Below, one piece after another: positions 34,601 to 43,600 of a stretch of DNA of 64,000 bases. Positions within the stretch are counted from its first letter, which is position 1. The number at the start of each line of letters is the position of its first letter. The position numbers and the translations under genes were made by a program. Source of the stretch: Paraspadella gotoi (Eukaryota > Animalia > Chaetognatha); the NCBI GenBank assembly GCA_051294375.1, contig CM119264.1:15092682-15156681 (forward strand), read 5' to 3'. A model generated the notes under the pieces. It ran no database searches. It was not told where the DNA came from and worked only from the letters and a program-made list of their open reading frames with translations.

Positions 34601-37600
34601 TCCACCGCCATCTTTGATCGCTCTTTTGTTTTCGTCCGACGACGATGGCGACGATCGATCCCGGTGGGACAGATTCTTCAAAGCCTTGAGCGCGTTTTTA
34701 CGTAGAAGAGGCTCTGGGCCCCTCGCGCATTTTAAAAGCGGAGCAACACCGTTCATTTTCCTGCGAAAGATTGTGAAGGCCAGGCTAAGTTAAGTTTCTA
34801 TCTTTTTAACAACTTCTTTAAAACAGCAAATTTTTAACCGTTTGTGCCTGTTAAAAAAAAATAAAAATTTTAATGATTCTAACATCCACTGGTTGTTTTC
34901 GCCTGGTTGCCACGAAAAAAGGCCGGAAATACTTTACGAATAATAAAAACAATAACAACGATAAGGAAAACGAACTAAGCCTCAAAAGGAAAAAAAAATA
35001 GCAAACGCACCAAGTTGTTAAAGGGTGACTAGGTAGCCCTCCCTTTTTTTATTTTGTTTAAAACATTTTTGTTTTCATTTATTGAATTTTTTTTTTATTA
35101 ATATTGGTTTTCATGTATTTTATTTCCACACGTTAAATGCCCGGCGTTTTTGATTTTTTCTCTTTTTCGCCTAGTGGAATCGATCGAAGATCGATTTGGC
35201 GAACTCCTGCAGCTTCGGCTCCAGCGTCACTTTTGTCGTCGTCAATCGCATCAAGTGCGCGACGTTTCGCCCCTGAAGTCGACAAGGACGGTTGGATAGC
35301 GAGGTTAGAGGGAACGAGTTTTTAGTCAGATCCCGACTCTATAATTCACTTTGTCGGTCTGTCCGCGTCCGCCCCCTCAATCTTGTCGGGCATTCACTTA
35401 TTTAATCTCAGAACATCGAATTATAATAAATTATGCAAAAAAAATTATCTCCGTCCGTCCGTCTGTCTGTCTGTCCATCCCACCTTAGCAAAAAAACACC
35501 TGTGTGATTGAGCTGGATATGAGAATTTCGATGGAATCGTCAAAAGGAAACAAAAAAATATATTTCACTATTTGAACACAAATTGCCCATGAGTATTATA
35601 ATTAATCAAATAAATAATCAGTTATTTAATCAATTATTCAATTAATTAATCAATAATTAATTAATCAGTCAATCAATCAAGACAATCGTTATTGGCACTA
35701 TTCTCATCGTCGTCATTGCTTTTGTCGTGGTTAGTGACGAAAAGACCTAAAAACAAATATTTTGGATCAAATTATTTAATTAATTAATTGCCAAAATAAT
35801 TAATTAATTAACTTGAATTATTTAATTATTAATTAATTAATTACCGATAATGATAGTGAGCAGATCCGACATTGTTTGCTCAAACTTGTTTAGAAATGCG
35901 GATATTTTAACAATTAACTATTAACGTTCCAAAAAAGAGAGGAAATCAGTGAAGCTTCAGCCAGAGGATCTAAGACTTCCAAACACCTGTGCCCTGGCAA
36001 AGGCAGCGAGTCCTGTGACAGCCTCGATCTGCTTCCCCATCTCCAGCCACCCGTTCCAATTCGGATCCGAAGTGCTGCACGACGACGACGAGGCGGACGA
36101 AAAAGAGTTGCTATTGCTATTGTTGATAATGTTGATGTTATTGTTGATGAACTTTGTCGCGAAGTCTGATGACCGGAGGAACGGGAAAAAAATTAAGTCA
36201 TGAAAGATAAAGGTTGCAATTTCGTCCAGCAGCTTATTCGCACCCTCTTCTTCCTCAACTTTCCACGTCGCGTCTTCCACGAGCCTTTCGAGATTTCCTC
36301 GCCACCCTCCGTCGTCGACGTCGTCTTCCTCGTCGTCATCGAAGCGACGAATCGACGGCTGCGCCAACACCATCATCGACGCGTCCGCCAGCGTCAGGGA
36401 TGTGGACGATCTGCTCCGCACCGCCCCCGTAAAGCGACCCAGATTCTCCGCGAGACCTTCCGTGTGGAAATGTCCGTCGTGAGTCCGATCCAGGCTTGAT
36501 TGGTGGCAGAATGAAATGGATTAGATGATTGCTTGTCTTTTTTAGTCGGATCTGCTTATCAGCAGATCCCGACTCTATAATCCACTTTGTCGGTCCGTCG
36601 GTCCGCCCCCTCAATCTTGTCGGGCATTAACTTATTTCATGTCAGAACATCGAATTATGATAAATTATGCCCAAAAAATGAGGTCCGTCCGTCCGTCCCA
36701 CCTTAACAAAAAACTCCAATTACTCGTGATTGGAATCGTGCGAGTGCAAATGAGTTTAAAAGGAAAAAAATAAAGTATTTTTACCTATATTTAAAAATAA
36801 AGTATTTTTACCTATATTTAAAAATAAAGTATTTTTACCTATATTTACTAATAATTATTATATTTATTAAAAATTGGATAGATAAATTGAATTTAAATTT
36901 TGTGTGTGAGTAGAAAAGTATGCAATCAAGCTGGAAATAAAATTTGGATGGACTCGTAGGAGTAGAAATGAGTTTAAATTAGACAAACCAAAAGACACAT
37001 TTATTTGAACTTTTAAAAATTTCTCTCTTCTCTCTCTGATTGATTGATTGATTGATTGCAAGTTGACCAAATTATCCCGGTTGATAAAATTATGCCAGTT
37101 GACCAAATTATGCCAGAGAACCAAATTATGCCAGTTGATCAAATTATGCCAGTTGAAAAATTATGTCAGTTGACCAAATTATACCAGTTGACCAAATAAT
37201 GCAAGTTGACCAAATAATGCAAGTTGACCAATTTATGCAAGTTGACCAAATTATGCAAGGTGACCAAATTATGTAAAATTATGCAAAATTATCAAATTAT
37301 GCAAGATGGTATTGGCGAAGCCACTGGTAATGATTGATAAATCATTTGATTTATAGATTTTTTCATAGATTTATTAAGAAGTCTGTTATGATTTGTTATG
37401 TTACGATGTGTTAAGATCTGTTAAGATCACAAATTAAAAGTCAGAAAAAAATTACCATTAAAATTATCATCCCATTAGCTTATTACCGCTTAATTTTTGT
37501 AGGCAGATCCGACATTGTTTGCTCAAACTTGTTCAACTATCGAATCGATTCCCAAACCTGTAAAGACTTGACATGTAGGGGGCGGTGGCGACGGAGAGTG

Positions 37601-40600: not shown

Positions 40601-43600
40601 NNNNNNNNNNNNNNNNNNNNNNNNNNNNNNNNNNNNNNNNNNNNNNNNNNNNNNNNNNNNNNNNNNNNNNNNNNNNNNNNNNNNNNNNNNNNNNNNNNNN
40701 NNNNNNNNNNNNNNNNNNNNNNNTTCATTTGTAAAGTGACAGTACGCTTGAGACACTCTGTATCATCGGGCATTTCTTTCAGTTTTCTTCGTATGTCACA
40801 AATTAGTTTACTTGTCCGAGGTAATAAATCGAGTTTTTCTACGCGACCTTTTCGATTCACGGCACACCATGTTTGACCTGATTTGATTTCCGCCCTGGAG
40901 TCGAATCAGCGCCGCCACGCTGGACCATGAGACGCGAGGTTTCATGCGCGCGGAATTAAGAGTGAATGCGACGACAAAAAGCAAAGAATATTAAAAAAAA
41001 GAGAGACGAAAATTAAAAACAGATACGCTAGTCAGAGATTTTAGCGTCGGAGAGTTTTTGAAACCAATTTAGACAGATCGCCGAAATTGTTTTGATTTAA
41101 AAATAAAGTAAAATTTAATTTATCGTTAAAAAAATGGAACCGGGAGAGACTAGAAAAAACGGTAGAGTTGTTTGATAAAGTATTTTTGCTTGGCCTGAAC
41201 GCTTTTTATACGTTCATGTGACTCAACCAGTGTAGTTTGTAAAACGGTAAATACAAAGCACAATCCCCATTCCTCACCTGCAATCGTTTTTGACGTCCTC
41301 ATTCTTGTACATAAGATGCTGCAAATAAGCGGCGGCGTTTGCCTGCAGCTGCGGTCGAGACTCGTCGGCGAGGTACTCCAGCACTTCGGCCAGCGTCGGG
41401 TCGCGGTAGAGGTCGTCATCCCGACGTTGGTGGGGACGGGGGAGCGCGTCGACGAGCCCTTGAGACGACATCGTCGGATCCGATGTCTGGAAGAGCATCT
41501 CAATTCTTATTTGTAATAATATACAGACATTCGTTTCGAGACGAAAATAAATAAAAAGTGCAGAGGTCAGGTGAACCAAAATGAAAGATGCTCACTTGTC
41601 CGTCGGCGGATTTCGGAGCGACGGTTTTGGGCGACGTGGACAGCGAAGACTCTTCGGCGATGGGGGTCACTTCTCGGGGGTGGGGAATCGATGAAGGGTT
41701 GAGGGGGTTGATGGGGTAAGGTATTTCCCCGGATTCGGAGATTGCCAAGGAGGTGCGATTTGATGGCATTGGAGTTCCTGGCGGAGGAGTGGGTGCATAA
41801 TGAGAGTGGACAATAATAAGTTAAATCAATTGAAAAAAATGTAGCAAAATGTTCAAAATGTCCGAAACTGCTTAAACCGAGTCAAGTGCTCAACAGTGAC
41901 TTGAATCTGATGAAAAACTTATATCGCTGACAGAAGCCTTCGAAAAAAAAGGAGAAAATTACCTCACTTCGTTATCATATTATATTATTTAAAAAAGAAT
42001 GTTTTATTTGAATAATAATAAAAATAGAAAAAACATTAAAACCTGATTCAAATGTGAAGATAACTTTTCGAGATGAAAACTTCTTATATCTTTTTTTCCG
42101 ATTGGGTAGAAAACAATCAAGGCTTCTTCAAATCTAATCATTTATTCCGTCAAGAAGGTGAGAGGCGTGCGGATGCAACGCTCATAATTCCTCTCCCCGG
42201 TGACACCGACTCTCTCTCTCTCTCTCTCTCTCTCTCTCTCTCTCTCTCTCTCTCTCTCTCTCTCTCTCTCTCTCTCTCTCTCTCTCTCTCTCTCTCTCTC
42301 TCTCTCTCTCTCTCTCTCTCTCTCTCTCTCCATTCACCTTTTTCGTCATCACCTCCCTTCGCTCCTCGTCCCCGTCATCGTCTCTTCGGATTCCCTCGCA
42401 CGCTATCTCGGCTCGGCTTTTCCTTAACTAATTGGCTCATTTCGGTGACGAACGAGAATTGGTTCGCGGGTCTCGGGTTCCCGACCCCGAGAACTTGCTA
42501 ACTAATCATTTATACGGTCCGTATGGACTTATATGATCGAAATACGAGAAATAACGAGATTATTTTAAGCTCGCCCCACCCAAAGCCCTTACCTCTCATG
42601 CTTTCGGAGTCGACATCAGCCCAACTCTCTGCGGGCGCCAAAGGCGCGATCCCATGCTTCACGTAAATCGGGTATCCGGAAATTGGTCCGTTGGTTGGAG
42701 GGGATCCAGGCTGAAGGATTTTAGGTTAAACTCGTCAAAAATGTTTTGTTATACGTGAAAATTGATTTAATTTTTTTTTTTTTTAAATGGTTTTCTCACC
42801 AGAGGAGAGTTCGTCGGTAAACTGCCAAAGTCGTCGACACCGTCTGAAATAATGATAAAACTAGTTTAAGAACATAATTAGAATATATGTATCTTTCGTT
42901 GGAAGATGCAAAAGACGGAATGTATAATAAATAATGTATAGTCATCATTACAGATTTTGTAATATTTTATAGAAATATTTTTAAGAACAGCTAGCTTTCT
43001 CGTCCAACAGCTACTAAGCTAAAAAGCGAACTCATATTAGTCATATTGCATTCCAGTTGATTAATTTTATTTTTCAAAAATATTCGCTCAAAATAAAGGG
43101 TCTAAAATACCTCTCTGTTCTGGTGGAACCATCATCGTTTCGTCTAAATTTCGAACGACCTAAGAATCCAAACCAAAATTGTGTATTTTTATCTCTCGCC
43201 TAAAAATCTTTTTAAAAATATATTTTATTCCAAGTACATCAATACTTTACAGACGCATCTTCTTTTTTCTTCACTTTCATCTTGTACCTTTTCGAACTCT
43301 TTAATCTCTATGGTTTCCTCATCCACCAAACGACACTCGACGGTTTTTATCACTTCAGTCATCTCTTCAAGTCTCACGTTGTAGTTTCCGCCGAAAACGG
43401 ATCCCAAATCTTCCGCGGGAGGAGAGAGAAAACGAAAACGAGGAAATTAAAGACAAATAAACGCCAGGTGCCCATCATAGTCATTTTCCAATAGACATTG
43501 GGTGATCATGTGTCATCGACAAATTCTTACAATCTTTATCTCCTACCGGACAAATTAAGATTGGCCAAATTCTTCAATGAGACGAACGCGAATCGATCAT

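What the first reader, a model, noticed from the sequence alone, without database searches (positions are those of the whole stretch)
35171..40945. Complete multi-exon gene nested on the same strand inside a p120-catenin intron
Seen: five exons join in frame from ATG 40945 to TAG 35171 (~703 aa). All lie inside intron 34761-41277, which splits the catenin ARM domain, and the flanking catenin exons join each other correctly (..DCR|KMNG..). Known: nested genes are mostly antisense, and same-strand nesting obliges the host spliceosome to skip all internal splice and poly(A) sites. Inference: an independent gene whose expression may exclude that of the host, or a switchable terminal cassette.
Basis: partly seen in the sequence, partly recalled or inferred. 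Interest (0 to 1): 0.75.

Follow-up and report, generated by a model that had tools for sequence, protein, structure and literature searches.

The report
Six-exon gene inside catenin intron
A six-exon gene with no detected relatives lies on the same strand inside one intron of an animal p120-type catenin gene, and assembled sequencing data show the two are spliced as separate messages; the inner gene likely has its own promoter, making this an unusually intron-rich example of an uncommon but known gene arrangement.

Summary
In one public run that behaves as RNA, a 2,308-nt contig covers six exons (41159 to 35054, minus strand), and a separate 3,331-nt catenin contig skips the whole 6,517-nt intron. 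The protein is 655 aa, not 703: exon 1 ends at 40878 and a 78-nt intron was missed. DNA contigs tie both ends to catenin exons, so misassembly is unlikely despite the N gap. A TATA box lies at 41210 and poly(A) signals near 35083; no catenin-to-nested joint was shown, so a terminal cassette is unsupported, although contigs drop rare forms. No relatives were found; the protein has a 140-residue helix with 11-residue periodicity, likely lipid-binding. All five nested donors are weak at intronic positions (post hoc, p=0.007), a likely aid to skipping. The same host gene holds an antisense gene and a second predicted same-strand gene. Same-strand, intron-bearing nested genes are known in flies (PMC3814207), and this scan noted same-strand nesting in other genomes. 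New member of a known kind.

The parts
41204..41226 (-). Predicted core promoter of the nested gene: TATAAAA at 41210-41204, with an overlapping TGAGTCA / CACATG (AP-1-like / E-box-like, names recalled) just upstream; only 67 nt below the host 5' splice site
   Evidence: sequence; function inferred; contig 5' end at 41159
40878..41159 (-). Nested exon 1: 214-nt 5' UTR without ATG plus ATG 40945 and 22 codons (basic, no acidic residue in the first 32 aa)
   Evidence: X8 contig piece 40878-41159, 0 differences
39130..40877 (-). Nested intron 1 (phase 2, same phase as the host intron); holds a TA-flanked element with 38-nt terminal inverted repeats (39171 to about 40760) and the 421-N gap, flanked by an exact 38-nt duplicate
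   Evidence: joint 39129/40878 CT..AC; repeats; phases
37824..39129 (-). Nested exon 2 (1,306 nt): Pro-rich, low-confidence N-part and a 140-residue helix with 11-residue periodicity (about aa 307-447)
   Evidence: X8 piece; model; periodicity
37558..37619 (-). Nested exon 3 (62 nt)
   Evidence: joint 36494/37558 and record positions 659-718 of the contig; frame; its upstream joint was not displayed
36244..36494 (-). Nested exon 4 (251 nt), AAG acceptor
   Evidence: X8 piece and joints
36166..36243 (-).
   Evidence: joint 36165/36244 CT..AC
35987..36165 (-). Nested exon 5 (179 nt; 9 nt longer in runs X8, X1, X5)
   Evidence: tables 4 and 8
35054..35272 (-). Nested exon 6: TAG at 35171, 3' UTR, AATAAA at 35124, 35099, 35083; contig ends at 35054, 293 nt above the host acceptor
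41278..41486 (-). Host catenin exon upstream of the nested gene (first ARM repeat)
   Evidence: catenin delta-1 3L6X residues 45-85, E 2.6e-4; joint
34761..41277 (-). Host intron, 6,517 nt, phase 2; the longest of 22 modelled host introns
   Evidence: joint 34759/41277 skipping 6,517, CT..AC
34564..34760 (-). Host catenin exon downstream of the nested gene (ARM repeat)
   Evidence: Pfam Arm E 6.7e-6; joints
28661..54001 (-). Whole host gene model: 23 coding exons, 1,181 aa without a stop, plus an inferred 5' UTR exon 54001-53809; p120/delta-catenin/plakophilin subfamily
   Evidence: 11 introns have RNA support, the rest are modelled

Best explanation
A separately spliced six-exon gene for a 655-residue protein with no detected relatives lies on the sense strand inside the 6.5-kb ARM-domain intron of a p120-type catenin gene; it is likely transcribed from its own TATA promoter just below the host's 5' splice site and polyadenylated about 290 nt above the host's 3' splice site. 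Catenin transcripts cross the whole unit and remove it as one intron (shown). They probably can do so because the inner splice sites are weak, so the inner poly(A) site is rarely turned into a terminal exon, and because the two genes are likely active in different cells (both inferred). The protein is predicted to be largely disordered with a long 3-11 amphipathic helix, so it likely coats a lipid surface in the manner of LEA, apolipoprotein or perilipin repeats, possibly in mitochondria given its basic N-terminus (inferred, about 45%).
For: Shown: two separate unbroken contigs in run X8 with canonical CT..AC joints, nested 2,308 nt and host 3,331 nt; model lengths match both exactly, the host with an inferred 193-nt UTR exon that ends at a GT donor and starts beside a CT repeat. 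DNA contigs bridge the host exon and nested exon 1 (X1 40734-41506, X5 41096-41938) and the nested 3' UTR and the host exon (X5 34229-35151; X1 reaches only 30 nt into the UTR). ORF open over five introns, exons 51-61% GC against 24-42% in UTRs and the 78-nt intron, GC3 0.67. TATA at 41210 is 1 of 2 TATAAA on that strand in the intron. Donor +3..+6 scores 1-1.5 for 5 of 5 nested sites against 1-3.5 for 11 RNA-supported host sites, two-sided p=0.007; acceptors T-poorer (p=0.012) and G-richer (p=0.016) than 22 host acceptors. Lag-11 identity 30, reached by 0 of 5,000 shuffles; hydrophobic period 98-98.5 degrees; Pfam Apolipoprotein E 0.0045, far below its cut-off. An intronic poly(A) site does not terminate unless an upstream acceptor is used (PMC10901741, section 8 read).
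Against: RNA support comes from one run whose RNA status is the tool's guess, and from contigs, which drop rare joints and cannot show starts, ends or levels. The nine-position U1 score differs only weakly (one-sided p=0.06); depletion of strong decoy donors is borderline (0 of 291, shuffle mean 3.0, P=0.05 at one threshold; 4 against 6.9, P=0.18 at another; none in the 5.5-kb intron); pyrimidine content of acceptors does not differ (p=0.85); the tests were chosen after seeing the sites and no set of non-nested genes was available as control. The predicted second nested gene has a fairly good donor. A strong-looking acceptor at 41150 and an in-phase acceptor at 39130 lie below the host donor. 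The fold is a single-sequence model (mean pLDDT 58) with no structural match (0 of 4 rows at E<=0.001); no targeting predictor was run.
Confidence: 0.82

Rival explanations
1. A two-by-two switch locus: nested exon 1 also serves as an alternative first exon of catenin, and nested exons 2-6 as an alternative terminal cassette, so that four proteins can be made.
For: Nested intron 1 and the host intron are both phase 2: host donor 41277 to acceptor 39130 would give an open 1,266-aa fusion, and nested donor 40877 to host acceptor 34761 an open 570-aa ARM protein. 22 of 53 tandem human 'nested' genes were judged to be alternative exons of the host (PMC3192792, section 6 read).
Against: Phase match has a 1-in-3 chance. 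Neither joint is among the 15 shown at min_share 1; of the three not visible (2 hidden, 1 dropped at repeats) two are required by the two contigs, one is unknown. A side path at depth 11.5 did break the host contig at 32213, whereas both contigs run unbroken through these junctions.
Confidence: 0.1
2. The nested message is cut out of the host precursor, or trans-spliced, at the pyrimidine-rich acceptor at 41150 and has no promoter of its own.
For: AG at 41150 has 13 pyrimidines in 15 nt and lies 128 nt below the host donor, a usual intron length here (median 205). An unchecked note on this genome describes an operon-like cluster (e1-10588303).
Against: The contig runs unspliced and without differences 10 nt past that AG to 41159 and carries no foreign leader. 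A TATA box sits at the expected distance. The chimera would stop after 36 added residues.
Confidence: 0.05
3. The nesting is an assembly artefact: another locus was scaffolded into the catenin intron at the N gap or at repeats.
For: 421-N gap beside a transposon end with a 38-nt duplicate; many repeats inside the intron; no single DNA contig spans the whole intron.
Against: The RNA contig joins across the gap; DNA contigs of two studies tie nested exon 1 to the upstream host exon and one ties the 3' UTR to the downstream host exon; the host contig joins those two exons. One of the DNA runs may be the source of the assembly.
Confidence: 0.03

Closest known systems
Same-strand, intron-containing nested genes of Drosophila melanogaster (Lee and Chang 2013, PMC3814207; Assis 2016, PMC5174743; passages read)
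   Same: Complete protein-coding gene inside one intron of a conserved host on the same strand; inner gene without detected homologues, in line with the fast evolution reported for nested genes; 50 such host genes are counted in Table 1 of PMC3814207.
   Different: Five introns, against 72.5% single-exon and a median of one intron among the multi-exon same-strand cases in flies; promoter within 70 nt of the host donor; tissue pattern unknown here (58% of fly same-strand cases peak in testis).
Tandem nested genes in mammals: KTI12 in TXNDC12, CHML in OPN3 (Kaer et al. 2011, PMC3192792, abstract and section 6 read); global survey PMC11694760 (passages read)
   Same: Host must splice over an inner transcription unit; interference (exonisation, intron retention, early polyadenylation) is the reported cost.
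   Different: No exonised or chimeric form was visible here; a 313-nt unspliced contig at depth 3.9 between the poly(A) site and the host exon is the only hint of leakage.
SAFB masking of sense-strand intronic units (Ilik et al. 2024, PMC10901741; abstract, passages and section 8 read)
   Same: Offers a known way for a host to ignore an inner poly(A) site: keep upstream acceptors unused.
   Different: SAFB targets are A-rich (33-40% A); nested exon 2 is 22% A and 60% G+C, so this route fits poorly; weak sites are the local clue instead.
3-11 amphipathic helix proteins: apolipoproteins, perilipins, synucleins (PMC6164224, passages read) and group 3 LEA proteins such as mitochondrial RvLEAM (PMC4326354, passages read)
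   Same: Disordered protein with a long helix of 11-residue period, small hydrophobic residues on one face, basic N-terminus without acidic residues.
   Different: Arg-rich; no Pfam family at its cut-off; no sequence relative found; resemblance is by pattern only.

Membership tests
Same-strand nested (intronic) protein-coding gene | Lies wholly within one intron of a host that is spliced across it | tested here: met
   joint 34759/41277 skipping 6,517 nt in the host contig; nested contig 35054-41159
Same-strand nested (intronic) protein-coding gene | Same strand as the host | tested here: met
   all joints of both contigs have CT..AC ends on +; both ORFs read on -
Same-strand nested (intronic) protein-coding gene | Shares no exon with the host | tested here: met
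   separate contigs, no cross joint among 15 shown of 17; rare forms cannot be excluded
Same-strand nested (intronic) protein-coding gene | Own transcription start and poly(A) site | tested here: inconclusive
   TATA 41210, contig ends 41159 and 35054, AATAAA 35083; contigs cannot show starts or ends, and 35053-35043 is A-rich
Same-strand nested (intronic) protein-coding gene | Translated product | not testable with these tools
   655 open codons, frame-keeping 9-nt variant, coding-like GC; no homologue for dN/dS, no proteomics
p120/delta-catenin/plakophilin subfamily (host) | ARM domain collinear with p120, including the subfamily insert region | tested here: met
   four exons match catenin delta-1 (3L6X) at residues 45-85, 257-279, 298-341, 347-434 in order; plakophilin 1 scores equally on one exon; a fifth exon gave only designed ARM proteins at E<=0.001
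p120/delta-catenin/plakophilin subfamily (host) | Orthology to a named member by tree | not tested
   only one close relative was retrieved (P0001, 73%)
Group 3 LEA / perilipin / apolipoprotein (nested protein) | 11-residue amphipathic periodicity | tested here: met
   lag-11 identity 30, 0 of 5,000 shuffles; peak at 98-98.5 degrees, P 0.003 and 0.04 in the helical range for two scales
Group 3 LEA / perilipin / apolipoprotein (nested protein) | Match to the family profile at its curated cut-off | tested here: not met
   Apolipoprotein 17 bits against a cut-off of 90; no LEA or perilipin row at E<=10
Group 3 LEA / perilipin / apolipoprotein (nested protein) | Lipid binding, heat solubility or organelle targeting | not testable with these tools
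   needs experiment

The most novel reading that the evidence does not exclude
The locus is an evolved solution to same-strand nesting and a four-way switch: the five-intron inner gene has been tuned to weak splice sites that only a permissive cell type uses, while matching intron phases let the cell also make a catenin N-terminus fused to the lipid-binding helix (1,266 aa) and an ARM-only catenin led by a presequence-like peptide (570 aa); with two more genes in its other long introns, this catenin gene would be a compact test case for how a spliceosome picks outer over inner sites.
Probability: 0.08. Interest if true: 0.7.

Novelty: new member of a known kind. Interest (0 to 1): 0.38.

Why it matters
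Selection against mis-splicing is the standing explanation for why same-strand nested genes are few and mostly intronless (PMC3814207), but how the surviving intron-rich cases are tolerated is little tested. Here a five-intron gene, with promoter and poly(A) site within 70 and 300 nt of the host's splice sites, fits in a 6.5-kb intron that can be cloned whole as a minigene, and its uniformly weak donors give a concrete hypothesis. It also warns annotators: such loci are easily merged into a false catenin fusion. The arrangement itself is known, and the protein's role is inferred from pattern only.

Tried and rejected
No whole genome is held for this window, so paralogues and genome-wide nesting rates could not be counted. 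No run is on record as RNA ('no RNA holder listed'); 4 of the 12 listed runs were laid and 1. Run X10 (labelled another organism) gave 3 short pieces, two identical to exon 2 at depth about 3; not counted as a relative or as independent support. Contig depths (555 nested, 54.5 host) are not used to rank expression. Near-zero X8 depth over unique intron bins (0 at 39276-39687, about 0 at 41160-41277 by subtraction) is noted only. Homologue searches for the nested protein found nothing: exon 2 among 7,996 scored candidates, exon 2 against 1.84 billion representatives (0 hits), exons 4-5 with their intron among 2,035 candidates of longer proteins, ESM Atlas twice, NCBIfam, earlier findings by sequence; these used single genomic stretches, never the whole spliced protein, so a relative matching across exons may be missed. 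The metagenome scan gave 1 locus of 261 pattern matches, a 22-residue Pro-rich match in an unrelated GC-rich contig, rejected as chance. Foldseek on PDB gave no match at E<=0.001. Rfam found 0 families in 28000-54500. Searches used a wrong frame and were redone. A first 5' host model went out of frame at donor 50330 and was fixed with donor 50322. Paper searches for p120 catenin with nested gene and intron returned 0 papers, for the evolution of the p120 gene structure 1 unrelated paper, and for weak splice sites in same-strand nested genes 3 listed papers of 4, none on this point by title or abstract start; the library lacks most subscription papers, and supplements were not read. Conservation of the intron position and of the insert in other species could not be checked: the only relative found (P0001) is a spliced product.
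Full report
Observation. The host donor at 41277 and acceptor at 34761 are canonical and join the flanking exons in frame as DCR|KMNG. No whole genome is held, so I turned to public runs: 12 were listed, 10 hold the stretch or part of it, none is on record as RNA, and X8 is guessed to be RNA. I laid X8, X10, X1 and X5 on 31300-42150 and X8 alone on 29800-42150 at 98% likeness and 1% share. X8 behaves as spliced RNA: 14 of the 15 joints shown have CT..AC ends at exon borders.

Two separate messages. One X8 contig of 2,308 nt covers 41159-40878, 39129-37824, 37619-37558, 36494-36244, 36165-35987 and 35272-35054 (the joint above exon 3 was not displayed but follows from the record positions). 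These six exons sum to 2,299 nt, and a 9-nt insertion seen in X8, X1 and X5 makes 2,308. The frame is open for 655 codons from ATG 40945, the first ATG of the contig, to TAG 35171. A second X8 contig of 3,331 nt carries the catenin joints, including 34759/41277, which skips 6,517 nt. My 23-exon host model reads 1,181 aa without a stop; its length down to 32213 is 3,138 nt, and the remaining 193 nt fit a 5' UTR exon from 54001 to a GT donor at 53808. Eleven host introns have RNA support (ten joints and one loose end); the others are modelled.

Not a misassembly. The RNA contig joins across the N gap. DNA contigs bridge the upstream host exon and nested exon 1 (X1 40734-41506; X5 41096-41938) and the nested 3' UTR and the downstream host exon (X5 34229-35151; X1 reaches only 30 nt into the UTR). 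X1 and X5 are from different studies, though either could be the source of the assembly. The gap is flanked by an exact 38-nt duplicate that is also the right end of a TA-flanked inverted-repeat element in nested intron 1, so it is probably a false gap at a transposon end (inference).

Host identity. Four host exons match human catenin delta-1 (3L6X) in order, at residues 45-85, 257-279, 298-341 and 347-434; plakophilin 1 scores equally on one; the exon just below the intron has a Pfam Arm hit but gave only designed ARM proteins in the PDB. One close relative was found, P0001, 73% identical and spliced; it locates two more host exons at 28953-28839 and 28762-28661.

Signals of the inner gene. 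TATAAAA lies at 41210, one of two on that strand in the intron, 67 nt below the host donor and about 50 nt above the contig's end; a TGAGTCA/CACATG element precedes it (factor names recalled). AATAAA occurs at 35124, 35099, 35083 and 35053, and the contig ends at 35054, before an A-rich patch, so internal priming cannot be excluded. Contigs cannot show true starts or ends, so promoter and poly(A) site are inferred. A 313-nt unspliced contig at depth 3.9 covers 34751-35063: read-through of the inner gene or unspliced host precursor.

Cassette or separate gene. No joint links catenin and nested exons among the 15 shown; 2 were hidden and 1 dropped at repeats, two of which the two contigs require, leaving one I could not see. 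A side path at depth 11.5 broke the host contig at 32213, while both contigs run unbroken through the junctions in question. Yet the frames allow cross-splicing: host donor to acceptor 39130 gives 1,266 aa, nested donor 40877 to the host acceptor gives 570 aa; phase match has a 1-in-3 chance. An acceptor-like AG at 41150 would give a truncated catenin, and the contig passes it unspliced.

How the host skips it (inferred). All five nested donors match the intronic consensus poorly (scores 1-1.5 of 4) against 1-3.5 for 11 RNA-supported host donors (two-sided p=0.007; all 22 host donors one-sided p=0.003). Nested acceptors have fewer T (p=0.012) and more G (p=0.016), but equal pyrimidines (p=0.85). 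Against this: the nine-position score gives p=0.06; strong decoy donors are 0 of 291 GT in the intron against a shuffle mean of 3.0 (P=0.05), but 4 against 6.9 at a lower threshold (P=0.18), and the 5.5-kb intron shows no depletion. The tests are post hoc and lack a control set of non-nested genes. In human cells an intronic poly(A) site terminates only when an upstream acceptor is used, and SAFB masks A-rich units (PMC10901741, section 8 read); exon 2 here is 22% A, so weak sites and separation by cell type are the likelier routes. Separation by cell type is reported for OMP inside CAPN5 (PMC6549253, abstract read) and is untested here.

The protein. No relative was found, all with single genomic stretches; the one metagenome locus was a chance Pro-rich match. 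A single-sequence AlphaFold model of exon 2 (mean pLDDT 58) is low-confidence except for one helix at residues 284-424, with no PDB match. That helix has an 11-residue repeat: 30 identities at lag 11, reached by 0 of 5,000 shuffles, and a hydrophobic period of 98-98.5 degrees rather than the heptad value; Pfam Apolipoprotein scores E 0.0045, 17 bits against a cut-off of 90. Such 3-11 helices mark apolipoproteins, perilipins and synucleins (PMC6164224, passages read) and group 3 LEA proteins, including a mitochondrial one (PMC4326354, passages read). The first 32 residues have five basic and no acidic residues, and the best 19-residue hydropathy is 1.5. I infer a soluble lipid-surface binder, perhaps mitochondrial; it is not a member of those families by profile.

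Context. Of 22 modelled host introns, 19 are at most 1,639 nt (median about 205) and the three longest each hold a gene or candidate: this one; a predicted two-exon same-strand gene of 289 aa at 44231-43225, with no RNA laid there; and a plus-strand open frame at 30043-31248 covered by an X8 contig. An unchecked note reports 14 antisense genes in a tubulin gene of this genome, so nesting may be common here; other notes record same-strand nesting in other genomes.

Comparison and verdict. In flies 71% of nested genes are antisense; same-strand ones are 72.5% single-exon, with a median of one intron otherwise, and 50 hosts with intron-bearing same-strand guests are tabulated (PMC3814207, passages read; PMC5174743, passages read). 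In mammals the strand bias is slight (PMC11694760, passages read) and about 31 tandem protein-coding cases were accepted in human (PMC3192792, section 6 read). One search found no paper on a nested gene in p120 catenin in the held library. The locus is a real, unusually intron-rich member of a known class, with one testable clue on how it is tolerated. Interest 0.38.

Noticed in passing
window 43225-44231 (-): Predicted second same-strand gene in the 5,507-nt host intron 48350-42844: exons 44231-43547 and 43409-43225 join to 289 acidic aa, AATAAA at 43229; no Pfam hit at cut-off; the host contig length leaves no room for it. No RNA was laid there.
   Followed up: partly
window 29977-31248 (+): Single open frame of 383 aa from ATG 30097 with a signal-peptide-like start and 16 dibasic sites, antisense inside the modelled host intron 31338-28954; X8 contig 29977-30987 covers it; no Pfam family; could be a secreted or peptide precursor.
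   Followed up: partly
window 39169-40762: TA-flanked element with 38-nt terminal inverted repeats in nested intron 1 (Tc1/mariner-like ends, name recalled); right end duplicated across the N gap; lower depth inside it in DNA run X5 may mean it is polymorphic.
   Followed up: partly
window 36074-36078: Runs X8, X1 and X5 all carry 9 more bases than the window in nested exon 5 (frame kept): allele or assembly slip.
   Followed up: no
window 31901-32242: Unspliced X8 contig at depth 11.5 across host intron 32212-31931: a retained-intron form would end the catenin inside the ARM domain.
   Followed up: no
window 34751-35063: 313-nt unspliced X8 contig at depth 3.9 between the nested 3' end and the host exon: read-through or host precursor.
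   Followed up: partly
window 35327-35500, 36540-36760, 46200-47700, 31500-31660: High-copy short repeat family inside introns of both genes, and an 18-nt minisatellite at 37025-37317.
   Followed up: no
window 23100-27100 (+): Gene with ephrin-receptor-like Cys-rich repeats and a fibrinogen C domain.
   Followed up: no
window 60916-61281 (-): Exon with an NBR1-like Ig domain (Pfam N_BRCA1_IG, E 2e-25), possibly ILRUN (name recalled).
   Followed up: no
window 6249-10081 (-): Several long Ala/Ser/Thr-rich open frames with no Pfam hit, one with a short Ala/Asn/Val repeat.
   Followed up: no
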